A stretch of 64,000 nucleotides of DNA. It comes from Candidatus Magasanikiibacteriota bacterium (GTDB lineage: Bacteria; Patescibacteriota; Patescibacteriia; Magasanikbacterales; GWA2-37-8). Below the pieces are notes generated by a model. It saw only the letters and a program-made list of their open reading frames with translations. It did not search any database and was not told the DNA's origin. A program made the position numbers and the translations under genes. How positions within the stretch are numbered: the first letter of the stretch is position 1; every line of letters begins with the position of its first letter. The stretch lies in the NCBI GenBank assembly GCA_016182085.1, contig JACOYB010000004.1, positions 4,250 through 68,249 of the forward strand, written 5' to 3'. Shown here piece after piece: positions 6,441 through 59,904 of the stretch.

Positions 6441-8507
6441 ATGCCAGAAAACCTTCACGGAGAGCATGCCGGCCACGATATGCAAAAGATGAGCCATATG
6501 GATCACGAAGCGGCCATGACCAATCCGCAAATGGCCAAGCAGATGGAAGCGGATATGCGCCGCCGCTTCTGGGTTTCTTTGTTTCTTTCTGTGCCGATTT
6601 TTTTGTACTCACCGGTCGGCGTTAATATATTTAAATTTAATTTGCCAACACCACTTCCCGTAAATTGGCTGCTTTTTATTCTCACTACCCCGATAGTTTT
6701 TTGGACAGGTTCTATTTTTATCACTGGTACATACTATTCTCTTAAAAGTAGAAAACTCAACATGTCGGTGCTTATTGCCACCGGCGTATTGGCCGCGTAT
6801 TTATTTAGCGTTCTGCTTACTTTTACTATTGGCGGCGAAACATTCTACGAAGCCGCGGCGCTACTGGTAACATTTGTATTATTTGGCCATTGGATGGAGA
6901 TGAAATCACGGCGCGGTACGTCTGATGCGTTGCGAGCCTTGTTTGATTTGGTGCCGCCAAAAGCCAATGTTGTTCGCGGAGGCAAAGAAATAAACATCAC
7001 CAGCGCGGAAATAGTCCAGGGCGACATTGTCGTGCTTCGGCCCGGCGACAAAGTGCCGGTGGATGGTGAAATCACCGAAGGCGAAACTTCTATTGATGAA
7101 TCACTTATTACCGGAGAATCTATTCCAGTTACTAAAACTATCGGAGCAAAAGTGGTGGGTGGATCGGTGAATCTTACCGGTATCGCGCAATTTAAAGCTA
7201 CAAAGGTTGGGTCGGAAACGGTGTTGGCCCAGATTATAAAAATGGTAGAGACTGCGCAGAACTCCAAAGCTCCCGGTCAGCGCATAGCCGACAAAGCCGC
7301 CGGCTGGCTAGTTATTCTTGCTATTGGCTCGGGGCTGGCTGCGTTTTTTGGCTGGTATGTTGGCGCAGGCGTGGGTCTTTTGGCCGCTCTCACTTTTGCA
7401 GTATCAACTGTGGTGATTGCCTGTCCGGATGCTTTGGGGCTCGCCACCCCGACAGCGGTCGCTGTGGGAACCGGCATTGGCGCAAAATATAATATTTTAA
7501 TAAAAGATGCCGCTACTTTGGAAAATACATCTCGGCTAACAGCCATTGTTTTGGATAAAACCGGCACTCTTACAGAAGGAAAACCAAAAGTCACCGAGGT
7601 TGTTGTGCGATCGGGATACGATCACCACGAAGTTTTATCGCTTGCTGCCTCGGCAGAGCGAGGTTCAAATCATCCTATTAGCGCCGCTATTTTAGAAGAA
7701 GCAAAAAAGAATGGGTTGGATGCAAACGAAAAGGTAGAAAAATTTGAATCAATTGGCGGCCATGGCGTAAGGGCTGTTATAAATGGCAAAGTTATTATTG
7801 CCGGCACGGAGCGGCTTATGCAACAAAATAATATTGATCTTTCTCCGATCAAAAAAGAAATTGACCGTTTGCTTAGTACCGGTAATACCATTAGTATTGT
7901 TGCTATTGATGGGCAAGTGGCGGGTGCTATCGGGGTGGCGGACACTCTTAGGCCTTCGGCGAAAAAAACTATCTCGGCGCTCCAGTCGCTTGGGCTGGAA
8001 GTGGCGATGATTACCGGCGATCATGAACAGGTGGCAAAAGCGGTATCAGATGAACTTGGCATAAATCGCTATTTCGCACAGGTGTTGCCGGAAGACAAGG
8101 CAAAATATGTAAAAAAACTTCAGGATGAAGGCAAATTTGTGGCAATGGTCGGAGATGGAATCAATGACGCTCCGGCACTCGCGCAGTCAAATATCGGCAT
8201 TGCCATCGGCGCCGGTACGGATGTGGCGATTGAAACAGGTAATATCGTGCTTATGAAATCAGATCCGTATGATATTGTGGCCGCCCTTCGTTTGAGCAAG
8301 GCAACGGTAGTAAAAATGAAACAGAATTTATTTTGGGCGGCGATATACAACGTGCTGGCCATTCCGGTTGCGGCCGGCGTGTTTTATAACTCATTAGGTT
8401 GGTCGTTGCGTCCGGAAATCTCCGCGCTTTTAATGTCAGCATCGTCTATTATTGTCGCCACTAACGCCGTGTTGTTGAAGCGAGTTGAATCCAAATTAAA
8501 AATTTAA
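6441..8507 (+). CDS. Second heavy-metal P1B-type ATPase, CopB-like (His/Met-rich N-terminus, no HMA domain), with unusual CPD transmembrane motif
   Basis: N-terminus HGEHAGHDMQKMSHMDHEAAMTNPQMAKQMEADM; [19 protein letters not shown] present; TM6 reads ACPDALGLATP (codons TGT CCG GAT). Confidence 0.85.
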   Translation: MPENLHGEHAGHDMQKMSHMDHEAAMTNPQMAKQMEADMRRRFWVSLFLSVPIFLYSPVGVNIFKFNLPTPLPVNWLLFILTTPIVFWTGSIFITGTYYSLKSRKLNMSVLIATGVLAAYLFSVLLTFTIGGETFYEAAALLVTFVLFGHWMEMKSRRGTSDALRALFDLVPPKANVVRGGKEINITSAEIVQGDIVVLRPGDKVPVDGEITEGETSIDESLITGESIPVTKTIGAKVVGGSVNLTGIAQFKATKVGSETVLAQIIKMVETAQNSKAPGQRIADKAAGWLVILAIGSGLAAFFGWYVGAGVGLLAALTFAVSTVVIACPDALGLATPTAVAVGTGIGAKYNILIKDAATLENTSRLTAIVLDKTGTLTEGKPKVTEVVVRSGYDHHEVLSLAASAERGSNHPISAAILEEAKKNGLDANEKVEKFESIGGHGVRAVINGKVIIAGTERLMQQNNIDLSPIKKEIDRLLSTGNTISIVAIDGQVAGAIGVADTLRPSAKKTISALQSLGLEVAMITGDHEQVAKAVSDELGINRYFAQVLPEDKAKYVKKLQDEGKFVAMVGDGINDAPALAQSNIGIAIGAGTDVAIETGNIVLMKSDPYDIVAALRLSKATVVKMKQNLFWAAIYNVLAIPVAAGVFYNSLGWSLRPEISALLMSASSIIVATNAVLLKRVESKLKI

Positions 8508-8653: not shown

Positions 8654-8700
8654 ACTTTGTTCTTTAATAATTTTTTCCAACTTTCTTTTGGCTAATCATT

Positions 8701-8728
8701 GTCATTCCCGCCATAGCGGGAATCCAGT
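8701..8728. repeat. Half-copy of interspersed palindromic repeat (TGTCATTCCCGC-catA-GCGGGAATCCAG)
   Basis: Same 28-nt hairpin unit as at 18108-18135, 27723-27750 and 31963-31990. Confidence 0.8.
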
Positions 8729-12207: not shown

Positions 12208-13530
12208 TTATGATTCTAAATCTTCTATATCTTCTCTATATTTATCAGCTTGCGCCATCACATTATCTCCGTAGAAGCGGTAACGAAGATTGGTACCGCC
12301 GGAGAAGTAGCGCATGGCAGCTTTCCATTCGCCGTCACGAGTGCCATCGGCGCCGTTATTTTTGAGCAGTAGTGCCGCGGCCATAAATGCGTCTCGTATA
12401 TCCCACGGGTCAGCCGGACTTTTGCCGGTTATTGCGCTGACTTTGTCTTTGTATCCCATCCAAGTAGAAGGAATAAATTGGGCTGGACCCATAGCGCCTC
12501 CCCAGCCAAGCTGGGAGCCATCCTTATTTTTCATTGGGCAAGAAACCGGAGTAACATCCGGATCACGTCCTAGTTCCTCCGTAATTTTTACAAATGGTTC
12601 TTGGTCACGCGTTGGTTTCATAATAACACGCCAGCCTTTTTCGGGCGGGTCGCCGGGGCGATTGCAGGTGCCAACATTTTTACCCAGATTTGATTCTTGG
12701 GTAAGAATGGCAAGGAGAAAAGCCGCGGATACGCCAGTTTGTCTGTCAGTGGCCTGGGCAATTTCTACCGCTTGTCCGAAAGTGATCTGCTTGCCAACGC
12801 CCAAGAGTTCATAGATACGGCTTCGGATTTCAGCGGCATGTTTTTTACTATCTTGCAAAAGGTTTTGATAAGTAAGTTCCAGTCCCTTGGTTTGTTCGAG
12901 TAGTTGATTTTGTTCCTGTAGTTTTCCGCCCAAAGCGCCCTGCTGAATCCTGGCTACATTTAACAACTTCTCGGCATCGTCTTGCTGATCCTCATAGGCA
13001 ATTTGTTGCTGGTTTAATTGTTTTTGTATTCCTTTTGCTTCCCGTACCAAATCGTTTATGGAAGCGGACAGCCGCTCATAATTTGTTGCTTCCACGAATG
13101 CTTCGCTTAGTCCGTCTTCAACCAAAATATTAAGCAAGAACATTTGTTCGTCTTTTTGTTGGAGCGTACGAAGCATTTTTGCTAGTTCTATACGCAGACC
13201 AGCGATTTTTGATTTATTGGCATCTATGGCTTTGGAAGTTTTTACTAATTTTTGTTCTAAATCTTCAATTTTTACGTTGGTAGCTTTAATTTCCAGGCGC
13301 AGCCTAGCCTCTTCGTTTCTAAGCTGTTTGATTTTATTGGCCAAAGTATTTTTCTCGCCTTTGGTAACGCTGATTTGCTTTTCTAATTCCTTAATTTGAG
13401 ATTCAATTGCCTGCAACTCATTTTCCAGCTGCTCTCGGTTGCTATCTGGGGCGGCTATGCTAATATTAGCCAAAAACAAACTAATCACTGCGAGTAGTAG
13501 TATGGATTTTTTTAACAATGCGTATTTCAT
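12208..13530 (-). CDS. Secreted protein: N-terminal signal/TM, long coiled coil, C-terminal lytic-transglycosylase (SLT)-like domain
   Basis: Heptad-rich 30-230 region; C-terminal ..AILTQESNLG.. catalytic-Glu motif of the SLT/goose-lysozyme-like fold. Confidence 0.6.
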   Translation of the reverse strand: MKYALLKKSILLLAVISLFLANISIAAPDSNREQLENELQAIESQIKELEKQISVTKGEKNTLANKIKQLRNEEARLRLEIKATNVKIEDLEQKLVKTSKAIDANKSKIAGLRIELAKMLRTLQQKDEQMFLLNILVEDGLSEAFVEATNYERLSASINDLVREAKGIQKQLNQQQIAYEDQQDDAEKLLNVARIQQGALGGKLQEQNQLLEQTKGLELTYQNLLQDSKKHAAEIRSRIYELLGVGKQITFGQAVEIAQATDRQTGVSAAFLLAILTQESNLGKNVGTCNRPGDPPEKGWRVIMKPTRDQEPFVKITEELGRDPDVTPVSCPMKNKDGSQLGWGGAMGPAQFIPSTWMGYKDKVSAITGKSPADPWDIRDAFMAAALLLKNNGADGTRDGEWKAAMRYFSGGTNLRYRFYGDNVMAQADKYREDIEDLES

Positions 13531-18082: not shown

Positions 18083-18227
18083 TGTCATTCTGAGTGAAGC
18101 GAATAATCCCTGTCTGTCATTCCCGCCAAAGCGGGAATCCAGTCGAATCAACAATTGTCTGGATTCCCATTGCGATGGGAATGACAATTAAACCGACAGA
18201 GATCCTTCACTCCGTTCAGGATGACAA
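18083..18227. repeat. Full copy of nested palindromic intergenic repeat (outer IR GTCATTCTGAGTGAAG / CTTCACTCCGTTCAGGATGAC; inner hairpins GTCATTCCCGC-caaa-GCGGGAATCCAG and CTGGATTCCC-attgcgat-GGGAATGACA)
   Basis: Seen directly; related copies at 8701, 27618-27832, 31961-32042. Confidence 0.85.
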
Positions 18228-23887: not shown

Positions 23888-23920
23888 AACAAAAAGAGAG
23901 GCCCGATTCCAGACCTCTCT
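23888..23920 (-). terminator. Rho-independent terminator (minus strand) downstream of small membrane protein gene
   Basis: agagagg-cccgattccagac-cctctct hairpin with A-run on plus (= T-run on minus). Confidence 0.5.
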
Positions 23921-23931
23921 TTGTATGTTGT

Positions 23932-24186: not shown

Positions 24187-24244
24187 ATGCTTGCTGCATT
24201 TAAAAATTAAAACTCTTTATATATATGATACACGAATTTCGCTT

Positions 24245-24263
24245 GTCGGGGTAGTGGGACTTG
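24245..24263. repeat. 19-nt direct repeat duplicating the 3' end of tRNA-Pro (T-loop to discriminator + 2-nt flank); att-like scar
   Basis: GTCGGGGTAGTGGGACTTG identical at 24245-24263 and 24587-24605. Confidence 0.7.
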
Positions 24264-24587
24264 GCCTCGACTCATAATGCCCGCGAGCATTATGGTCTGG
24301 CCACCGCCTCGCCATCCGCGCGAGCGGATATGGCTCCGGCGTTCAAGTCCCAACACGAGCAAAACTTTTTGCTCGTTCTACCTCTCCTCATTTCATTCGT
24401 CGGCCTAATATCGCAATTACAGAACTTCATCGGCTTTACACCGCCATCTCACGGGCAGTGGAACGCGCGCCAGAAGATCTCCAGATAGAGAGTTCCAGTT
24501 CCCATTCCCTTACCTGATTGAGCCAAAGAACAACCAAAAGGCCTCATGTGATGCAGGAATGATAACAGTTCGATATGTTCTGATTCC

Positions 24588-24661
24588 GTCGGGGTAGTGG
24601 GACTTGAACCCACAATCCCCTGCTCCCAAAGCAGGTGCTCTAGCCAATTGAGCCATACCCC
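24588..24661 (-). tRNA. tRNA-Pro (anticodon TGG)
   Basis: Cloverleaf on reverse complement: CGGGGTA acceptor, D arm, anticodon loop tTTGGGa, T arm GTGGGTTCAAGTCCCAC. Confidence 0.85.
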
Positions 24662-24673
24662 GTTTATATTATC

Positions 24674-24746
24674 TCGTGCCGCGAGTCAGAGTCGAACTGA
24701 CCACGCCAGCCTCTTCAGGGCTGCGCTCTACCGATGAGCTATCGCG
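24674..24746 (-). tRNA. tRNA-Phe (anticodon GAA)
   Basis: Reverse complement GCCGCGATAGCTCATCGGTAGAGC..CTGAAGA..GGTCAGTTCGACTCTGAC..CGCGGCA folds as canonical tRNA. Confidence 0.85.
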
Positions 24747-24752
24747 GCTTAT

Positions 24753-24989
24753 TTATATCCTATTTTTTAAAAATCGTCTACCGAAACCAGTTTTGAAATA
24801 TTTTTCCCTGGCCAGTGCTTTATTTTTAGATAAACACGCTTCGTAATATACCAATTGAAGTGGTCGTCTAGCTAATGTGGCCGGCACATGTCCGTCACAG
24901 TGTTCTTTGAATCTAATCTTTAAATTTTCGCTATATCCAATGTAAAGTTTGCTATCTTTTAAGCTTTTTAATACATAAGTATAGTGCAT
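24753..24989 (-). CDS. GIY-YIG nuclease family protein (UPF0213-like, 79 aa) inserted between tRNA-Phe and tRNA-Ala
   Basis: MHYTYVLKSLKDSKLYIGYSENLKIRFKEH...RPLQLVYYEAC matches GIY-YIG motif; start at ATG 24989 (upstream part of the ORF is tRNA/repeat sequence). Confidence 0.7.
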   Translation of the reverse strand: MHYTYVLKSLKDSKLYIGYSENLKIRFKEHCDGHVPATLARRPLQLVYYEACLSKNKALAREKYFKTGFGRRFLKNRI

Positions 24990-25055
24990 ATTAATGTGGC
25001 TGCGCTCCCGCGCCCGCAACGCCTGAGCAAGCTCAAGCTTGCGATGGCGGGCGGG

Positions 25056-25077
25056 TACCGATGAGCTATCGCGGCTT
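25056..25077. repeat. 22-bp direct repeat duplicating the 5' end of tRNA-Phe plus 3 flanking nt; together with 24727-24748 it brackets the GIY-YIG gene
   Basis: TACCGATGAGCTATCGCGGCTT identical at both sites. Confidence 0.7.
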
Positions 25078-25080
25078 TTG

Positions 25081-25153
25081 TGGACCCTATCGGGCTCGAA
25101 CCGATCACCCCCGCGTTGCAAACGCGGTGCTCTACCAAATGAGCTAAGGGCCC
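25081..25153 (-). tRNA. tRNA-Ala (anticodon TGC)
   Basis: Reverse complement GGGCCCTTAGCTCATTTGGTAGAGC..TTTGCAA..GGTTCGAGCCC..AGGGTCCA; G3:U70 Ala identity pair present. Confidence 0.85.
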
Positions 25154-25190
25154 GTAACCAATTAAAAAAGTAAAAATATTCTATCAATAG

Positions 25191-25219
25191 TTAACAAAAA
25201 AGTCAACTGATGATATAAT
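25191..25219 (+). promoter_or_regulatory. Sigma70-like promoter TTAACA-17-TATAAT upstream of the MgtC-family gene
   Basis: Seen directly. Confidence 0.4.
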
Positions 25220-27617: not shown

Positions 27618-27832
27618 TTGTCATGCTGAATTTATTTGCAAGTCGAGTGAGAGAAAAGTAAAAGTTTACTTTTCCGAACGAGCGAAGCAAATATGTTTTA
27701 ACTATATTTCAGCATCTTCATTTGTCATTCCCGCAACAGTGGGAATCCAGTATCCATAAATTGTCTGGATTCCCGCCTTGGCGGGAATGACAATGTACGT
27801 ATAGAGATCCTGAAACAAGTTCAGGATGACAG
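27618..27832. repeat. Composite copy of nested palindromic intergenic repeat (GTCATGCTGAAAT / ATTTCAGCATC IR; GTCATTCCCGC-aaca-GTGGGAATCCAG; CTGGATTCCCGCCTTGGCGGGAATGACA; ATCCTGAAACAAGTTCAGGATGAC)
   Basis: Seen directly. Confidence 0.8.
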
Positions 27833-31960: not shown

Positions 31961-32042
31961 CTGTCATTCCCGTCAAAGCGGGAATCCAGACAAAACAGAT
32001 CGATTAGATGCTAGATTCCAGCTGAAGCGGGAATGACAATGA
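31961..32042. repeat. Copy of palindromic intergenic repeat (CTGTCATTCCCGTCAAAGCGGGAATCCAG ... GCTGAAGCGGGAATGACAATG) just upstream of rpoB
   Basis: Seen directly. Confidence 0.8.
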
Positions 32043-32083
32043 TAAAATTAATTTAAAAAATAATTTAAGTTTAATTAATCTGT

Positions 32084-54144: not shown

Positions 54145-57100
54145 ATGAAAAAACGCCTGGGTTTTTCCCTCCTCATCGCCGCATTTAGCTTGGCGATCTA
54201 TGTATCTTTTTTGGCTCCAAGCAAAGTTGCGGCTGATTCAAATCTGGTTGAAGACCCGGGCTTTGAAACGAGCATGTCTAACTTTGAACCAAATCAAGAC
54301 GGTACATCCGTATCTCTTACGAGCATTAGTCCAATTAACGGATCCCGAAGTTTGGTAGTTGGCACTACTGGTTATGGTGATAGTGTATTATGGCAAGGCC
54401 GGGATATTTCTACCTTTGCTACCAAAAGATCAAATCAATTTACCGCTTCAGTGCGTATTCGTTCCACCGTTGGTTCGGCTTCAGAGATTTCTTTTTGCGG
54501 TTTGGTAGATTACGCAACTGGCGAAGGCGTTCGCAATTGTAAAGAAGTAACAGGTTCGGTTGGTGACAAAGGCACAGTCAATCTTTCCTTTGCTCTTGAT
54601 AACAGCCGAGATTTAGACAGAGTCCGTGTTGGTATTTTCCAAGAAGGAAGCGCCGCCTTACGTGAAGTTTTAATTGATGACTTGTCAGTGATATTAACCG
54701 GTATTTCCATCGGTTCGCCAGCTCCTACTCCGGTAAATGGTGCGTGTGGATCTTCAAATAACGCCACTGTTGCCAGCGCTCCAACCACCAACCTCTGTTC
54801 ATCCGGTTCTGCCAGCACGGTTGCGGGTTCCGGTCCATGGACTTGGAGCTGCGCCGGATCAAATGGCGGTACAACCGCCAGCTGCAGCGCTCAAATGATT
54901 TCTACTTCAAATCCAGTAAATGGTACTTGCGGCGCGGCTAATAACACCCAAGTTTCTTCAGCTCCAACTAACTATCTGTGTTCATCGGGTACAGCCAGTA
55001 CTGTTTCTGGTTCCGGCCCATGGACATGGAGTTGTTCGGGTACAAACGGTGGTACCAACTCTAGTTGTAGCGCTCAAACAATTACTACCCAAAATCCAGT
55101 AAACGGTGTTTGCGGCTCGGCTAATAATACAACAGTTTCAACAGCCCCAACGACTGGTCTTTGTTCCGTTGGCTCAGCCAGCACGGTGGCCGGTTCCGGC
55201 CCATGGACATGGAGCTGCGCCGGTCAAAACGGCGGCACAACCGGTAGTTGTAGCGCTCAAAAAACTATTTCTTCCACACCGCCGCCTGTTTCAAGCGCAA
55301 ATAATTTAATTGAAGAACCTAGTTTTGAAACCACTCTTTCTAATTTTGAACCAAATCAAGCCGGCACCTCTGTTAATGTTACAAATGTTAATCCCATTAG
55401 CGGCGCTAGAAGTTTATCTATAACTACCGGCGGCTACGGCGATAGTATTCTTTGGGCAGGCCGGGACATTTCTACTTTTACTACCAAAAGATCTTCTCAA
55501 TTTACCGGTTCTATCCGTATTCGTTCTACCGTTGCTTCTGCCTCCGAAATTTCATTCTGCGGTTTAGTTGATTACGCAACCGGATCCGGCGTACGTAATT
55601 GTACTAATGTTAGTGGTTCTGTTGGCGATAAAGGTACAGTTAATCTTTCCTTTGCTCTTGATAGCGCTCGTGATTTAGACAGGGTCCGTGTTGGTATTTT
55701 CCAAGAAGGCAGCTCTCCTCTTAGAGCAGTTATGCTTGATGATGCTTCCGTAGTTTTAGCAGGTATTTCTCCTCCGATTCCAGTAAGCGGAGCTTGCGGA
55801 TCATCTAATAACACCACTCTTTCATCTGCCCCAACTACCAATCTTTGTGCCAGTGGCAGCCCGAGCTCTGTATCCGGTTCGGGTCCTTGGAGTTGGACAT
55901 GTAATGGTTCAAATGGCGGCACTACTGCTAGCTGTACTGCCCAAAGAACTATTACCCAAACTCCGGTAAATGGCGTATGTGGTTCAGCCAATAACACAAC
56001 AGTTTCAACTGCTCCAACTACCAATCTGTGTTCTTCCGGTTCTGCCAGCACGGTTGCCGGTTCTGGCCCATGGACTTGGTCTTGCGCCGGTTCAAATGGC
56101 GGCACAACCGGTAATTGTAGCGCTCAGCTTTCCGGATCAACTACAATTCCACCTTCAACTAGATTTACAATCGGTCAACGCGTGCAAACAACAGCTAATT
56201 TAAATGTTAGAGCCACTCCAAATACCGCAGGTACTTTGCTTGGCACACAAACTTCCGGTTCGTTAGGCACAGTAACAGGCGGGCCAGTAGCCCAGGGAGG
56301 CTATAATTGGTGGGGTATAAACTACGATGCGGGAGCAGACGGATATTCGGTAGAAAATTTCTTAACCGCCTATTCATCTCCAAATCCTCCTCCAACTCCT
56401 CCACCGGGCGGCGCCATAACTTATCCGGCCTTTAATTTAAACGATCCGGCAGATGCCCCGCTTATTAAATTTGCAGAAACATGGGCAAGAAATTGGAATT
56501 TTGAAGGACATAATGTTGATCCTAACTTTAGCGGCAATAGCGGCAATTGGAATTATACCGAAACCACTTATGAGCCATGGCTTTTTGATCGTGCTTCCGT
56601 TGGTTACTATTTATATAAAAGAACTACCGACCCTACGCAAAAAGCTCGCTGGTATCAGCAATTTTTATCCGACTTTGCTTATTATAGAAATCATATAGAT
56701 TCAGCCGGTATATTTACTCCAAAAGGATATGGCGATACAAAATATAGTTATATCACTCCATTCTTACTTTACGAAAAAGAAACCGGAGACACTCAATATC
56801 GTCCAATTGCCCAAAGAATCTATAATGCATGGATGAGTGATTTTAGTAGCACATATTCACCAAATGGAAACGATCTTTGGACAGAACGTGAAATTGGTCT
56901 GGCTTTGGAAGCGGCCGTGTCTTGGTACGAAATTACTGGTGATTCTTCCGCGCTTACTCGCGCCAATGCTTTGATATCTCAATGGACTGTGGTGGCCAAC
57001 GCAGGCGGAGGCGTACCTCTTACTACCGTAGATCGCCATGAAGGTGGCGGAGGAACACAACTCATCACAAGTCCTTGGATGAGTGGATTATACTTCCAAG

Positions 57101-59904
57101 CTGCCCGCAGACTTTATGCTATAACTGGCAATACAGAAATATTGCAACAAGTAACTCGTTATGCAGATTGGATGGAACAGCACGCCTATTTTGATGCCGG
57201 TGTTGTAGACGATCCATATGCCGGAATAACGGCTGCTTACTATTTGGTTGGTCCTACAGGTCCTTACACTCCGGAAACTCCAAGCGCAGGCGACCTAGAC
57301 CACTGTTTAGATGTTTCAGGAATAGTATCGTTTGCCATTAGCGCCAAACAGCTTCTTGGTCAATCTGCTACTGCGCTTACCGCTCGCCATGCTCAACTAC
57401 GAACTTGCGCGGTATATGCATTTAATGATGCCACTCGCACCACCATTACTCTTCCTAAATATCGCGTAAATCCTCCTCGCAAATTTAATTGGTGGATGCG
57501 TTCTACCCTTGGATATAATGGTCCAACCAGTCCTGTCACTCCTCCACCAACTACTTTAGTAAATGGCGTTTGTGGTTCTGCAAACAACACTACCGTTGCT
57601 TCTGCTCCAACCACCAACCTTTGTTCCGCTGGAACAGCTAGTGCGGTCGCCGGTTCCGGCCCATGGACTTGGTCTTGCGCCGGATCAAATGGCGGCACCA
57701 CTGCCAACTGCAGCGCTCAAAGAACAGCTTCAACTCCGCCAACTAGTTATTCTTTATCCGTATCTCTTGGTGGTAGTGGTACCGTAGTTTCAACTCCGAC
57801 TGGTATTAACTGTGGCGCTGCCTGTACTGCCAACTTTACGAGCGGTACTTCGGTTACTCTTACCGCAACTCCAGCAACCGGAAATACATTTATTGGTTGG
57901 AGCGGTGGAGTTTGTAGCGGTACTGGAACCTGTGTCGTTTCAATGACTGCCGTTAGAAGCGTTGGCGCGACATTTGCAGCAAATACTACCCAAACTTCCG
58001 TAAGACCTTTGGCTACTGCCAATCCGCGCGTTTTGTTAAATGATGCTACGACCGTATCAAGATTACAAAATGCTTTGTCTACAAATGCGGCTGGCGCGGC
58101 CAGATTTAGAACCATGGTAAACAATGAACTTGCAAGTCCGGGCACAAACTATGCCTTCCAAGGATGGTTTGCCGCTTTAATGTATCGTCTCACCGGTACA
58201 GCGAGCTATGGAACCTTTGCCGTAAATAAAGTAGATACATTTGTTAATGCCGAAATGGCCAGAATAAACGCCGGCCAACGTCCGCTTGTCGCTGGTGATA
58301 GTTTCTTAGAAGTGGGAGATATGGTCGGCGATGTGGCCCTTGTATATGACTGGGCAAACAATTTACTTACTCCAGCTCAAAAGACAACCTGGGTTAACTA
58401 CATGAATTTAGTTTTAAATAATTTATGGGGTAATCCGGACGCAGTTCGTTGGGGCGGAGTTTCTTATCCTTGGTCCGGCTGGTCATTAAATGATCCTTAC
58501 AACAATTATTATTATTCATTCTTGCAAGCCACCATGTTGACTGGTTTAGCTACTTACGGAGATAACCCTCAAGCGCAACAGTGGTTAAATAAATTTTATA
58601 ACGATAAAATCATCGCTCAATTATTGCCAGCCTTCAATATTATGCCAGGCGGCGGATCTCGTGAAGGTACGGGTTATGGCACGGCTCTGGCCAGATTATT
58701 CAAGTTATACTTCTGGTGGGAAAAATCAACCGGTGTAAATATTGCCAACCAAACTCCGCACACTTTGGGCACAATGTTCTGGTTTACCCATTCCATCGTT
58801 CCATCACTTGATAAATTGGTTCCAACCGGCGATCATTCTCGCGATGAAACTGCCGAGTTGTATGATTACCATCGTGATTTACTTCAGAATTTAATTTCTC
58901 TCTATCCAAACGAACAAATTTCTGGAGCGGTAAAACAACTATTGTCCCAGTCCAATGTACAAAGAATGCAGTTTAGCGTAAGTTACTGGTCGGACTTTGT
59001 AAATGATTGGCCATCCATTACTGCCAGACCTTTAACTACTCTTAACACCACCTATTTTGGAACCGGTACTGGCAACTTCTATACCCGTTCTTCTTGGAAT
59101 AATAATGCCATAATGGTACACATGATGGCTGGCCCTTACGACCAAAGCCATGCTCATAGGGATCAAGGTTCAGTTCTGCTTAATTCTGCCGGCGCTTGGT
59201 TATTTGATGATGCAAACCGCCGCTCTTCTAGCGGTATAGAATTAGACGAAGAGATGCATAACTTGGTACGCTTCCGTTCCGGTGGAAGTACTGTCAGACA
59301 AGTAGAAAGCGCTGCCCCATCCGAAGTTTTGGCTTTATCTGATGGAACTTTGTTCTCTTATGAACTGGCCAATACTAAACCGATTTATAACAACAAACCG
59401 GAAGTAGTAAAATCAGAAAGAGAAATGGTCTTTATTAAACAGGGCGCGGTTGTGCTGTTTGATAGATCTGCTGCCAACTCATCTGCGGTTTCCAGAATTT
59501 TCCAGTTACAAATGTCAACCGCTCCGTTTATCTCTGGCAACCGATTAACCTTTACCAGTGGTGCGCAAAGAGCCGATGTGTGGAGACTCTCTCCTGCCAA
59601 TGTTCCATGGACAACCGTGCCTGTATTTAGCGGTCAACGAGCAGAAGCTGTAGACAACAACGGCACTCAATCTTTGTTCCTGCATGTTATAGGTGTAAAC
59701 AGCCAAGTAACATCGGTAATCTCTGATAATACGGCCACCGAAACCGGTGCTCGCATCACCTTTAGTGATGGAACCGTGGCTACCGTACGCTTTAGCAATG
59801 CTGGTCGCGGCGGTACATTAAACATGGTAAGTGCCTCTGGCCAAACCTTGTATAATGCCGCTCTACCTATAACTGTAAATACATTCCCGCAATATCAACA
59901 ATAA
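54145..59904 (+). CDS. Giant (1919 aa) secreted surface protein with a heparinase II/III-like lyase domain
   Basis: Signal peptide. Two ~180-aa carbohydrate-binding-like modules, seven ~55-aa four-Cys repeats (PVNGxCGSANNTTVSxAPTTNLCSSGSASTVAGSGPWTWSCAGSNGGTT), an SH3b-like segment and a B-repeat-like beta domain. C-terminal part has SHAHRDQGSVLL (HxHxDxxS) and surrounding features of heparinase II/III. Confidence 0.8.
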   Translation: MKKRLGFSLLIAAFSLAIYVSFLAPSKVAADSNLVEDPGFETSMSNFEPNQDGTSVSLTSISPINGSRSLVVGTTGYGDSVLWQGRDISTFATKRSNQFTASVRIRSTVGSASEISFCGLVDYATGEGVRNCKEVTGSVGDKGTVNLSFALDNSRDLDRVRVGIFQEGSAALREVLIDDLSVILTGISIGSPAPTPVNGACGSSNNATVASAPTTNLCSSGSASTVAGSGPWTWSCAGSNGGTTASCSAQMISTSNPVNGTCGAANNTQVSSAPTNYLCSSGTASTVSGSGPWTWSCSGTNGGTNSSCSAQTITTQNPVNGVCGSANNTTVSTAPTTGLCSVGSASTVAGSGPWTWSCAGQNGGTTGSCSAQKTISSTPPPVSSANNLIEEPSFETTLSNFEPNQAGTSVNVTNVNPISGARSLSITTGGYGDSILWAGRDISTFTTKRSSQFTGSIRIRSTVASASEISFCGLVDYATGSGVRNCTNVSGSVGDKGTVNLSFALDSARDLDRVRVGIFQEGSSPLRAVMLDDASVVLAGISPPIPVSGACGSSNNTTLSSAPTTNLCASGSPSSVSGSGPWSWTCNGSNGGTTASCTAQRTITQTPVNGVCGSANNTTVSTAPTTNLCSSGSASTVAGSGPWTWSCAGSNGGTTGNCSAQLSGSTTIPPSTRFTIGQRVQTTANLNVRATPNTAGTLLGTQTSGSLGTVTGGPVAQGGYNWWGINYDAGADGYSVENFLTAYSSPNPPPTPPPGGAITYPAFNLNDPADAPLIKFAETWARNWNFEGHNVDPNFSGNSGNWNYTETTYEPWLFDRASVGYYLYKRTTDPTQKARWYQQFLSDFAYYRNHIDSAGIFTPKGYGDTKYSYITPFLLYEKETGDTQYRPIAQRIYNAWMSDFSSTYSPNGNDLWTEREIGLALEAAVSWYEITGDSSALTRANALISQWTVVANAGGGVPLTTVDRHEGGGGTQLITSPWMSGLYFQAARRLYAITGNTEILQQVTRYADWMEQHAYFDAGVVDDPYAGITAAYYLVGPTGPYTPETPSAGDLDHCLDVSGIVSFAISAKQLLGQSATALTARHAQLRTCAVYAFNDATRTTITLPKYRVNPPRKFNWWMRSTLGYNGPTSPVTPPPTTLVNGVCGSANNTTVASAPTTNLCSAGTASAVAGSGPWTWSCAGSNGGTTANCSAQRTASTPPTSYSLSVSLGGSGTVVSTPTGINCGAACTANFTSGTSVTLTATPATGNTFIGWSGGVCSGTGTCVVSMTAVRSVGATFAANTTQTSVRPLATANPRVLLNDATTVSRLQNALSTNAAGAARFRTMVNNELASPGTNYAFQGWFAALMYRLTGTASYGTFAVNKVDTFVNAEMARINAGQRPLVAGDSFLEVGDMVGDVALVYDWANNLLTPAQKTTWVNYMNLVLNNLWGNPDAVRWGGVSYPWSGWSLNDPYNNYYYSFLQATMLTGLATYGDNPQAQQWLNKFYNDKIIAQLLPAFNIMPGGGSREGTGYGTALARLFKLYFWWEKSTGVNIANQTPHTLGTMFWFTHSIVPSLDKLVPTGDHSRDETAELYDYHRDLLQNLISLYPNEQISGAVKQLLSQSNVQRMQFSVSYWSDFVNDWPSITARPLTTLNTTYFGTGTGNFYTRSSWNNNAIMVHMMAGPYDQSHAHRDQGSVLLNSAGAWLFDDANRRSSSGIELDEEMHNLVRFRSGGSTVRQVESAAPSEVLALSDGTLFSYELANTKPIYNNKPEVVKSEREMVFIKQGAVVLFDRSAANSSAVSRIFQLQMSTAPFISGNRLTFTSGAQRADVWRLSPANVPWTTVPVFSGQRAEAVDNNGTQSLFLHVIGVNSQVTSVISDNTATETGARITFSDGTVATVRFSNAGRGGTLNMVSASGQTLYNAALPITVNTFPQYQQ

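What the first reader, a model, noticed from the sequence alone, without database searches (positions are those of the whole stretch)
24245..24661. att-like duplication of the tRNA-Pro 3' end enclosing ~325 bp of GC-rich structured DNA
A 19-nt copy of the tRNA-Pro 3' end (T-loop to discriminator plus flank) lies ~325 bp downstream of the tRNA. This is the classic signature of site-specific integration at a tRNA gene. The enclosed segment has higher GC and several stable hairpins (CATAATGC-ccgcgag-GCATTATG; ATCCGC-gcga-GCGGAT) but no protein gene. It is either a decayed integrative element or a small structured RNA cargo.
Basis: seen in the sequence. Interest (0 to 1): 0.5.

Follow-up and report, generated by a model that had tools for sequence, protein, structure and literature searches.

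The report
tRNA-tail-copying structured element family
The 19-base repeat is not the scar of an integrated element. It is one strand of the closing helix of a conserved ~150-nt structured element, absent from Rfam, that sits behind tRNA genes in many Patescibacteria and always ends in a copy of that tRNA's 3' end.

Summary
GTCGGGGTAGTGGGACTTG occurs exactly twice, at 24245-24263 and at 24588-24606 (the tRNA-Pro 3' end). None is expected by chance.

The enclosed DNA has two parts:
- 24395-24587 is unstructured (z about 0) and has no homologue.
- 24245-24394 (minus strand) is a compact structured element, "E" (z = -6.6).

E has homologues in about 30 metagenomic contigs and in two related genomes. 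In 31 of 31 copies with an identifiable neighbour, E lies 0-205 nt downstream of a same-strand tRNA (Asp, Pro, Met, Leu or Ala). Nearly all copies end in a copy of that tRNA from T-loop C56 to the discriminator, exact over 10-20 nt in most. That copy pairs with an upstream antisense segment, which changes whenever the tRNA's T-arm changes. Two variable hairpins on conserved purine-rich internal loops complete a Y shape.

Covariation is strong: 90.5% of cells are paired, against 67% in shuffles, and 33 of 38 pairs show changes on both sides.

There is no match in Rfam, phage, plasmid or viral collections, or in the searchable papers. No integrase or other conserved protein lies nearby.

Best reading: a new tRNA-operon-embedded structured RNA that mimics the tRNA's end. 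Its function is unknown. A DNA-level recombination module is not excluded.

The parts
24588..24662 (-). tRNA-Pro(UGG). Its last 18 nt plus 1 flanking nt (24588-24606) are repeat copy 1.
   Evidence: ARAGORN; Rfam tRNA 70.2 bits; repeat
24395..24587 (-). 193-nt spacer between tRNA-Pro and element E. It is unstructured and of unknown origin. In other family members a 7-53 nt spacer, often a terminator hairpin, occupies this position.
   Evidence: z = 0.15 sense and 0.39 antisense. No similarity to E (score 22 against a shuffle mean of 22.1). The covariance model (CM) scores -1.6 bits here. No homologue in the related loci compared (L002-L014) or elsewhere in the window. Possible 5-nt CCGAC direct repeat at its two ends, read from the sequence.
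24245..24394 (-). Element E: a conserved tRNA-linked structured element, about 150 nt.
   Evidence: CM R1 hit at 24245-24382, 122.5 bits, E = 6.6e-31; MFE z = -6.6; homologues
24378..24386 (-). Acceptor-5'-like segment GAGAGGUAG. It can pair with CUACCCC of the repeat (6 of 7, one A.C).
   Evidence: Sequence. L004 has a perfect GGGGUAG/CUACCCC pairing. Only about half of the family has such a stem.
24355..24377 (-). Hairpin hp1 (ACGAGCAAAA-AG-UUUUGCUCGU).
   Evidence: Folds. All 7 pairs have double changes across the family, 91% paired. There is a G-C to A-U compensatory change against L004.
24341..24352 (-). P1 5' strand plus junction, UGGGACUUGAAC. This is the reverse complement of tRNA-Pro T-loop/T-stem GUUCAAGUCCCA.
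   Evidence: Inverted repeat I4. It changes with the upstream tRNA's T-arm in the family.
24306..24340 (-). P2 (GCC/GGC and GC/GC around a GGA/GA purine internal loop) capped by variable hairpin B (24314-24331).
   Evidence: Invariant core GCCGGAGC...GCGAGGC; hairpin B has 6 of 6 pairs with double changes; coordinates
24263..24305 (-). P3 (GGCC/GGCC) capped by variable hairpin A (24270-24296), with a purine-rich internal loop.
   Evidence: (helices 6-8)
24245..24263 (-). Repeat copy 2 (X), CAAGUCCCACUACCCCGAC. It forms the P1 3' strand and the acceptor-3'-like strand, then the discriminator and 1 nt. It is the 3' end of E.
25178..25206 (-). Sigma-70-like promoter of the tRNA cluster (TTGACT-17-TAGAAT, with TG). 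It is the only good minus-strand promoter upstream of E.
23893..23922 (-). The first intrinsic-terminator-like site downstream on the minus strand, after the 84-aa gene. No terminator was found between tRNA-Pro and E.

Best explanation
SHOWN. Window 24245-24394 (minus strand) is an intact member of a conserved family of ~140-200-nt structured elements ('E'). These elements lie directly downstream of tRNA genes, on the tRNA strand, in Patescibacteria. The anatomy, 5' to 3', is: (often) a 7-nt copy of the tRNA's acceptor 5' strand; hairpin hp1; a guide-like segment that is the reverse complement of the neighbouring tRNA's T-loop and T-stem 3' strand; the conserved core GCCGGAGC / hairpin B / GCGAGGCGGUG; P3 with hairpin A; and finally a copy of the neighbouring tRNA from C56 to the discriminator. 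It pairs with the guide-like segment (P1), and in about half of the copies also with the acceptor-5'-like segment. This closes a Y-shaped fold and recreates an acceptor/T-stem-like helical stack with a tRNA-type 3' end. INFERRED. E is transcribed with the tRNA cluster. In the window that would be from the promoter at 25206-25178, with no terminator before E. E is then probably released by the tRNA end-processing enzymes, because its closing helix and 3' end imitate those of the tRNA. The result would be a stable tRNA-end-mimicking small RNA. What it does next (decoy, antisense or guide for the T-arm of its cognate tRNA, or protein scaffold through its purine-rich internal loops) is unknown. 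The 193 nt between tRNA-Pro and E are an unrelated later insertion.
For: Family: the 19-nt core GGGACTTGAACGCCGGAGC gave 37 metagenomic loci, about 30 of them true homologues. The CM found 54 hits, including diverged copies. Homologues also occur in the relatives L004/L052 and, truncated, in L003. Linkage: 31 of 31 copies with a detectable neighbour have a same-strand tRNA 0-205 nt upstream (Asp 17, Pro 6, Met 4, Leu 3, Ala 1). Tail copying: an exact 10-20-nt match of E's 3' end to that tRNA's 3' end in 24 of 30 copies listed with an upstream tRNA. The tail differs wherever the tRNA's acceptor differs. Guide segment matches the T-arm: GGGACTTGAAC/GTTCAAGTCCC, AGGATTTGAAC/GTTCAAATCCT, AGGAATTGCAC/GTGCAATTCCT, GGAATCGAA/TTCGATTCC. 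Structure: 90.5% of cells paired against 67% shuffled and 36-46% slid; 33 of 38 pairs with double changes; 0 of 500 shuffles reach any measure. Window copy z = -6.6. RNA on the tRNA strand: MFE is lower on the sense strand in 27 of 27 copies. Non-canonical cells are mainly G.A/A.G (55) rather than pyrimidine-pyrimidine (28). The conserved internal loops are purine-rich on that strand. E sits between tRNAs of one cluster in L023, L028 and L050. Where the tRNA gene encodes CCA, E's copy includes it (L019). Not a mobile-element scar: no conserved neighbouring protein and no hit in viral, phage or plasmid collections.
Against: There are no expression data. G.U (38) equals A.C (38) in the modelled pairs, so the usual signature of strand-specific RNA selection is missing. 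In many loci a terminator-like hairpin lies between the tRNA and E, which argues against simple co-transcription. The acceptor-like 5'/3' pairing is present in only about half of the copies (12 of 26, p = 0.014). Truncated copies (L003, L017) and presence/absence among relatives (L010, L011 and L013 lack it) show that E is dispensable. Tandem arrays (L015, L019, L039, L043, L045) look like the behaviour of a repeat or cassette. The alignment used for the pair counts was fitted to the model's structure. The sequences were also gathered with an exact core 19-mer, so core conservation is overstated.
Confidence: 0.6

Rival explanations
1. E is a non-autonomous mobile or recombining DNA module. It would be a miniature integrative cassette that enters the T-loop of tRNA genes by site-specific recombination, catalysed in trans. 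The 19-mer would be the att identity block, and the conserved hairpins would act as folded DNA recognised by the recombinase, much as attC sites of integron cassettes are.
For: The repeated block runs from the T-loop to the 3' end plus 1-3 nt, as in T-loop attB sites (PMC1762012). Tandem arrays occur, with periods of 151-186 nt in copies without extra insertions. Truncated copies and patchy presence among relatives are seen. The element has spread to five tRNA species. G.U = A.C gives no RNA-type strand asymmetry in the helices. A structure conserved with variable sequence is also what attC sites show.
Against: No integrase or any other recurring protein lies within 3.5 kb in about 30 loci. 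There are no copies in viral contigs, phages or plasmids. The incoming element would already need an antisense segment and an acceptor-5' copy matched to each target tRNA, which recombination does not supply. The purine-rich conserved internal loops and the sense-strand MFE advantage fit RNA better. A circle of about 170 bp is an awkward recombination substrate (established knowledge of DNA bending).
Confidence: 0.25
2. One reading: the 343-nt unit is what is left of a large integrative element (prophage or island) that entered tRNA-Pro and was then almost completely deleted.
For: There is a direct repeat of the tRNA 3' end. The DNA next to tRNA-Pro varies between relatives: the 84aa-CorA-FolB block is present in the window and L003 and absent in L011 and L013. 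In L052 a 5.7-kb insertion lies between tRNA-Pro and E.
Against: The same small unit, with the same internal core, recurs behind other tRNAs in about 30 unrelated contigs without any island. The L052 insertion carries its own ~190-nt terminal inverted repeats and sits in the terminator, so it is a separate event. No integrase remnant was recognised in the six-frame translation of 24187-24588, which was inspected by eye only. The spacer has no homologue in the related loci compared.
Confidence: 0.05
3. Neutral debris. Patescibacterial tRNA clusters accumulate partial tRNA duplications and GC-rich hairpin insertions through repair after nuclease cuts (for example by the neighbouring GIY-YIG proteins) or through replication slippage. 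On this reading E is just one such product.
For: Other tRNA fragments with GC-rich filler lie nearby: a tRNA-Phe 5' fragment in the window, a tRNA-Ala 5' fragment in L011/L012, and a tRNA-Ile 3' half and tRNA-Phe pieces in L028. GIY-YIG genes lie next to tRNA-Phe in the window and in L028; a third homologue lies upstream of tRNA-Asp in L048.
Against: Debris would not keep a 19-nt invariant core, two conserved internal loops and eight covarying helices across five tRNA contexts.
Confidence: 0.03

Closest known systems
attL/attR tRNA-fragment duplications left by tyrosine-integrase elements, T-loop sublocation type (e.g. mycobacteriophage Ms6 attP x tRNA-Ala T-loop, PMC1762012; general review of tRNA gene fragments, PMC9897764)
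   Same: There is a direct repeat of the tRNA 3' end that starts inside the T-loop and runs to or just past the discriminator. An intact tRNA lies on one side and a fragment on the other.
   Different: The unit between the repeats is only about 150-190 nt in typical copies (343 nt here). No integrase lies in or near it. The fragment is base-paired to a matching antisense segment inside a conserved covarying fold. The same core occurs behind five tRNA species.
tRNA-like processing mimics: plant mitochondrial t-elements, mascRNA, the tRNA-like domain of tmRNA, bacterial Y RNA (YrlA) tRNA-like modules (PMC4201824)
   Same: An acceptor/T-stem-like coaxial helix with a tRNA-type 3' end could recruit tRNA end-processing enzymes. 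E is embedded in or next to tRNA transcription units.
   Different: E has no T-loop, D-loop or anticodon arm. Its 'T-stem' is closed by a three-way junction. No Rfam tRNA-clan, tmRNA or YrlA match was found. Unlike all of these, its helix sequence is copied from the particular tRNA next door.
Integron attC sites (folded single-strand recombination sites of gene cassettes)
   Same: An imperfect palindrome of about 60-140 nt is conserved in structure rather than sequence. It occurs in tandem arrays, and an inverse-core/core pair flanks a variable middle.
   Different: There is no integron integrase, no cassette ORFs and no R''/R' consensus (RYYYAAC/GTTRRRY). E is tied to tRNA genes and copies their ends.
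Retroviral/LTR-retroelement primer-binding sites and guide RNAs (box C/D sRNA, IS110 bridge RNA)
   Same: A segment of about 12-19 nt is exactly complementary to the 3' part of a specific tRNA (T-loop onward). It lies next to K-turn-like G.A motifs. The same RNA holds both an antisense and a sense copy of the target.
   Different: No RT, Nop-domain or L7Ae-type protein, or DEDD recombinase is encoded nearby. The complementary segment is interrupted by hp1 and is sequestered by E's own copy. These resemblances come from general knowledge and were not tested.

Membership tests
Integrase-generated att duplication at a tRNA gene (integrated element or its remnant) | Direct repeat of the tRNA 3' part flanking the inserted DNA | tested here: met
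   Exact 19-nt repeat, 0 expected by chance
Integrase-generated att duplication at a tRNA gene (integrated element or its remnant) | Integrase (tyrosine or serine recombinase) gene or pseudogene between or next to the repeats | tested here: not met
   No ORF of note in 24264-24587. No recurring protein family near about 30 homologous loci. Individual neighbours were not all scanned against Pfam.
Integrase-generated att duplication at a tRNA gene (integrated element or its remnant) | An empty site in relatives equals the sequence with one repeat copy and nothing between | tested here: inconclusive
   L010, L011 and L013 have tRNA-Pro followed by a terminator and other genes, so the flanks cannot be aligned. 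L003 lacks the repeat but keeps 60 nt of E.
Integrase-generated att duplication at a tRNA gene (integrated element or its remnant) | The inserted DNA is related to phage, plasmid or island DNA | tested here: not met
   No match in viral contigs, phages or plasmids
Rfam families (tRNA clan, tmRNA, YrlA, group I/II introns, ribozymes, GOLLD/ROOL etc.) | Covariance-model match at or near the gathering score | tested here: not met
   Only the three tRNAs reach threshold. Nothing falls within 24245-24587 even at E <= 10. ARAGORN finds no tmRNA.
Conserved structured RNA (generic criteria) | Helices supported by compensatory changes across homologues, beyond controls | tested here: met
   33 of 38 pairs with double changes; covariation score 0.466 against 0.129 (shuffled) and at most 0.081 (slid). 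Caveat: the alignment was fitted to the model.
Conserved structured RNA (generic criteria) | Strand-specific signature (G.U far above A.C; sense folds better) | tested here: inconclusive
   Sense MFE is lower in 27 of 27 copies and G.A mismatches are enriched, but G.U 38 = A.C 38.
Conserved structured RNA (generic criteria) | Evidence of transcription and defined ends | not testable with these tools
   No transcriptome data were available. Only a promoter and terminator scan was possible.
Integron attC | R''/L''...L'/R' boxes with the GTTRRRY core and an IntI integrase in the array | tested here: not met
   The sequence shows only GTT/AAC, not the full consensus (read). No integrase-like recurring neighbour.

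The most novel reading that the evidence does not exclude
E is an RNA that acts on its cognate tRNA through its guide segment. That segment is complementary to T-loop/T-stem nt 53-64 of the tRNA, including nt 54-55, which E's own copy lacks. E also carries a spare copy of the tRNA's 3' end immediately 3' of a small catalytic or protein-binding core. This has the same topology as a trans-splicing ribozyme (guide - core - 3' exon) or a modification or cleavage guide. It could replace or repair damaged tRNA 3' halves, direct a T-loop modification, or copy itself behind new tRNA genes by an RNA-templated route.
Probability: 0.1. Interest if true: 0.95.

Novelty: categorically new. Interest (0 to 1): 0.78.

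Why it matters
These are organisms with tiny genomes, in which every retained non-coding element is notable. Its design has no described parallel: each copy borrows both strands of its closing helix from the tRNA gene next door. That links it directly to tRNA biology (processing, quality control, modification, or defence against tRNA-targeting nucleases or integrases). It also gives a concrete, testable object: about 150 nt with a clear consensus and several natural variants. If E is instead a DNA-level cassette, it would be a new kind of miniature tRNA-targeting mobile element that works without an adjacent recombinase. Either way, genome annotators should not read such tRNA 3'-end repeats in these genomes as prophage or island boundaries.

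Tried and rejected
1. Rfam at gathering score and at E <= 10 gave only tRNAs. ARAGORN found no tmRNA.

2. Other copies of the hairpins or the 19-mer in the 64-kb window: none. The CM finds a single E in the window.

3. The genome-contig scan with the neighbouring CorA gave only one distant, useless locus.

4. Idea that the 193-nt spacer is a decayed second E copy: rejected. The alignment score equals the shuffle mean, the CM gives -1.6 bits and z is about 0.

5. Idea that E copies within one genome are homogenised, which would point to a genome-specific partner or to gene conversion among E copies: not supported. Own-contig copies rank 2nd to 14th of 25.

6. Search for a conserved protein partner such as an integrase, RT or nuclease: only syntenic housekeeping genes and a sporadic small GIY-YIG protein.

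7. G.U against A.C strand test: uninformative, 38 against 38.

8. The acceptor-like 5'/3' stem as a universal feature: it holds in only about half of the copies.

9. Relatives of a tRNA-Asp-type locus sought through PrfB, to look for empty sites: the two loci obtained have no tRNA-Asp and no E.

10. Literature: no paper contains the core sequence. Keyword searches found only tRNA group I introns at position 35/36 in Patescibacteria (PMC13011429), general att-fragment work (PMC9897764) and RNA-motif surveys that do not describe this element.

11. Hammerhead-type cores were looked for by eye in the junction strands, and retron and box C/D features were considered; none was found. I did not search with dedicated tools beyond Rfam.

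Full report
**1. The observation**

All three tRNA genes of the region are on the minus strand: Pro(UGG) 24588-24662, Phe(GAA) 24676-24748 and Ala(UGC) 25080-25153.

The 19-mer GTCGGGGTAGTGGGACTTG occurs exactly twice, at 24245-24263 and 24588-24606. No further match appears with up to three mismatches, and none in 100 shuffles. Read on the tRNA strand it is CAAGUCCCACUACCCCGA+C. That covers the 3' half of the T-loop, the T-stem 3' strand, the acceptor 3' strand, the discriminator and one flanking base.

An independent Logan assembly (L001) is identical over the whole interval.

It pairs with the downstream repeat copy and encloses both hairpins in a three-way junction.

**2. The enclosed DNA has two parts**

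Folding the two parts separately gives different results:
- 24245-24394 has MFE z = -6.6 (sense) and -7.0 (antisense).
- 24395-24587 has z = 0.15 and 0.39.

The second part has no homologue in the related loci compared (L002-L014) or elsewhere in the window. It is not a degenerate copy of the first part. Rfam finds nothing in either part, even at E <= 10.

**3. Relatives of this genome**

RecA and CorA place the window in Patescibacteria, with best named hits in the Parcubacteria group and Magasanikbacteria. Syntenic loci recA-mgtC-tRNA Ala/Phe/Pro were recovered.
- In L010, L011 and L013, tRNA-Pro is followed at once by an intrinsic terminator and unrelated genes.
- In L003 (CorA 86% identical), tRNA-Pro and a terminator are followed by the first ~60 nt of the structured part: GAACGAGCAAAcagcTTTGCTCacaTTGGGACTTGAACGCCGGAGC. 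This is joined directly to the promoter region of the small downstream gene. The two hairpins and the repeat are absent.
- In L004/L052 (CorA 71%), a full homologue lies upstream of the small gene and CorA. It reads GGGGTAG-hp1-TTGGGACTTGAACGCCGGAGC-hairpin-GAGGCGGTGGC-hairpin-CAAGGCCACTACCCCGA, followed by CACG and a terminator like the one after tRNA-Pro in L013. It is separated from tRNA-Pro by a 5.7-kb insertion that carries its own ~190-nt terminal inverted repeats.

The structured part, which I call E, is therefore older than the window's lineage and was originally adjacent to tRNA-Pro.

**4. A family**

An exact scan of JGI metagenome contigs with the shared 19-nt core GGGACTTGAACGCCGGAGC returned 37 loci. 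About 30 have the full anatomy, and five are chance hits in GC-rich coding DNA. The same scan of viral contigs returned none.

A covariance model (CM) built from 21 copies scored the window copy at 122.5 bits. It also found further, diverged copies in the same contigs.

Of the copies with a detectable neighbour, 31 of 31 lie 0-205 nt downstream of a tRNA on the same strand: Asp(GUC) 17, Pro(UGG) 6, Met(CAU) 4, Leu(CAA) 3 and Ala 1.

E can lie between tRNAs of one cluster (L023, L028, L050). It can also occur in tandem (L015, L019, L039, L043, L045).

Release-factor homologues show that the tRNA-Asp-type loci are also Patescibacteria, Paceibacterota/Adlerbacteria-like.

**5.

In 24 of 30 copies listed with an upstream tRNA, the 3' end of E is an exact 10-20-nt copy of that tRNA's 3' end, starting at or near T-loop C56. 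Most of the remaining copies carry a recognisable but diverged tail; truncated copies such as L003 and L017 have none.

The tail differs wherever the tRNA differs: GUCUCUCGCGC, UUCGUCCGCGC, GUCGUUCGCGC, GUCCACCGCGC, GUCCACUGCGC and AUCACUCGCGC for Asp variants; CACCAGCCCGA or CACUACCCCGA for Pro; CUCCCCCGGCAC for Leu. It includes CCA where the gene encodes it (L019).

The segment that pairs with the tail follows the tRNA's T-arm:

| Guide segment in E | T-arm of the upstream tRNA |
|---|---|
| GGGACTTGAAC | GTTCAAGTCCC |
| AGGATTTGAAC | GTTCAAATCCT |
| AGGAATTGCAC | GTGCAATTCCT |
| GGAATCGAA | TTCGATTCC |
| GGGAGAATCGAA | TTCGATTCTCCC |

Mean complementarity to the own tRNA is 0.93. Against tRNAs with another T-arm it is 0.83.

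The two junction bases after P1 (AA or CA) complement tRNA nt 54-55 (UU or UG), although E's own tail lacks those bases. The CA/UG cases form one subfamily, so this rests on essentially one evolutionary event.

In about half of the copies, a 6-11-nt run upstream of hp1 also complements the acceptor 3' strand (12 of 26 against 29% in cross-pairings, p = 0.014). The window has GAGAGGUAG against CUACCCC.

**6. Structure**

The consensus, 5' to 3', is:
- an acceptor-like stem, in some copies;
- hp1;
- P1;
- junction GAAC;
- P2 (GCC/GGC, a GGA/GA internal loop, GC/GC) with hairpin B;
- GG(U);
- P3 with an A/G-rich internal loop and hairpin A;
- the P1 3' strand.

On the CM alignment of 50 distinct sequences:
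- 90.5% of cells form standard pairs, against 67.0% in shuffles and 36-46% with slid partners.
- 33 of 38 pairs have changes on both sides.
- The covariation score is 0.466, against 0.129 for shuffles.
- No shuffle in 500 reaches any observed measure.

Two caveats apply. The alignment is fitted to the model. The sequences are also related and were collected through an invariant 19-mer.

**7. RNA or DNA, and which strand**

For RNA on the tRNA strand:
- The sense strand folds better in 27 of 27 copies, by 4.9 kcal/mol on average.
- Non-canonical cells are mostly G.A/A.G (55), against 28 pyrimidine-pyrimidine.
- The conserved internal loops are purine-rich on that strand.
- Some hairpin A loops are GNRA on that strand (GGAA, GUAA).
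- E lies inside tRNA clusters.
- In the window, the only good upstream minus-strand promoter is that of the tRNA cluster (25206-25178). The first terminator is after the 84-aa gene (23922-23893).

Against, or neutral:
- G.U equals A.C, 38 each.
- Many loci have a terminator-like hairpin between the tRNA and E.
- The fixed orientation follows automatically from the direct repeat.

I put RNA on the tRNA strand at roughly two in three.

**8. What it is not**

No protein family recurs near E other than syntenic housekeeping genes. There is no similarity to phage or plasmid records.

E is not a decayed copy of the tRNA. It has no D, anticodon or T loops, and there is no tRNA-clan hit.

By eye, the junction strands lack a hammerhead-type core, and no RT is adjacent as a retron would require. 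Beyond Rfam I did not test these with dedicated tools.

**9. Mechanism: what I commit to, and how far**

Shown: the 19-mer is the 3' strand of the closing helix of an intact member of a conserved, covarying, tRNA-linked element family.

Inferred, at about 0.6: E is made as part of the tRNA transcript. Its closing helix and 3' end imitate the acceptor/T-stem stack and end of the neighbouring tRNA. It would therefore be cut out and finished by the tRNA-processing machinery and persist as a small RNA.

Its purpose is open. The guide-like complementarity to the cognate T-arm, the purine-rich (K-turn-like) loops and the spare tRNA tail suggest an interaction with the cognate tRNA or with a tRNA-binding protein.

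The main rival, at about 0.25, is a miniature recombination cassette acting as folded DNA. It explains the T-loop-to-end identity block, the arrays and the patchy distribution. It does not explain the missing recombinase or the pre-matched antisense and acceptor-5' segments.

**10. Comparison with what is known, and novelty**

The repeat itself looks like a T-loop-type att duplication (PMC1762012, PMC9897764). The defining companions of that class (an integrase, mobile-element DNA, an empty site) were tested and not met, or were inconclusive.

E works topologically like tRNA-like processing mimics (t-elements, mascRNA, tmRNA or YrlA tRNA-like domains), but it matches none of them.

I found no Rfam family and no paper describing it. 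The only related recent literature on Patescibacteria tRNA genes concerns group I introns at position 35/36 (PMC13011429).

I therefore rate E as a new kind of element. The reservation is that the literature search is limited to open-access full text.

Noticed in passing
window 24753-25075 (minus strand): A second partial tRNA duplication. A copy of tRNA-Phe nt 1-30 (24998-25075) is interrupted after nt 20 by a 48-nt GC-rich hairpin (25008-25055). It lies directly upstream of a 79-aa GIY-YIG ORF (24753-24992; Pfam PF01541, E = 6e-15), which ends 4 nt before the intact tRNA-Phe. The relative L003 has tRNA-Ala and tRNA-Phe 1 nt apart, with none of this. It looks like a free-standing GIY-YIG (homing-endonuclease-like) cassette inserted into the tRNA cluster; compare T4 SegB (PMC2330249).
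   Followed up: partly
L028:5500-6290 and L033:20-445: Another lineage also has a GIY-YIG ORF just upstream of tRNA-Phe. It is preceded by tRNA-Phe pieces interrupted by GC-rich hairpins, one of them inside the anticodon loop. A duplicated 3' half of tRNA-Ile follows a variant tRNA-Ile. L033 lacks the ORF but keeps some of the fragments.
   Followed up: partly
L011:3985-4090 and L012:6660-6765: A 13-14-nt 5' fragment of the 'usual' tRNA-Ala (AGGGCCCTTAGCTC) and about 85 nt of GC-rich DNA precede a tRNA-Ala with different acceptor, D and T arms. This looks like replacement of the tRNA gene by a foreign copy.
   Followed up: no
L052:3416-9118: A ~5.7-kb insertion with ~190-nt terminal inverted repeats lies between tRNA-Pro and element E. 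It carries an HTH_19 protein (70 aa), a 433-aa and a 265-aa protein with no Pfam match, and an 825-aa Methyltransf_32 protein. No recognisable transposase was found. It appears to be inserted in the palindromic terminator.
   Followed up: partly
L040:~395-435; L021/L048, L027, L029, L038, L045 (3' parts of their E copies): Extra GC-rich hairpins of 17-90 nt are inserted inside E, between the T-stem-like and acceptor-like parts of the tail, or inside the tail. This is the mirror position of hp1. They turn the three-way junction into a four-way, cloverleaf-like one.
   Followed up: no
window 8697-8727, 18115-18189, 27722-27795, 31962-32043: Seven copies of a ~30-nt palindromic repeat, TGTCATTCCCGC-nnnn-GCGGGAATCCAG, often in inverted pairs. 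It is a REP-like dispersed repeat.
   Followed up: no
window 54241-57721: Diverged tandem repeats of 183 nt (six copies, 67-78% identical), plus longer 1062-nt-spaced repeats. This is probably a repetitive coding region.
   Followed up: no
L032:~7410-7500 and L035:~12980-13070: Just downstream of E, a tRNA 5' part (GCCGAAGTAGCTCAGATGGTAGAGCAACTCCATGGT...) diverges, right after the anticodon stem 5' strand, from the intact tRNA-Thr(GGU) that ARAGORN calls at the same position in L023. It may be interrupted in or near the anticodon loop by an intron-like insertion, and ARAGORN does not call it.
   Followed up: no
L003:5385-5432: In the truncated E of L003, the TTGAAC of the P1 5' strand lies 17 nt upstream of TATCAT. 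Together they form a good sigma-70-like promoter for the small downstream gene. In the window, about 95 nt of E separate these two hexamers.
   Followed up: no
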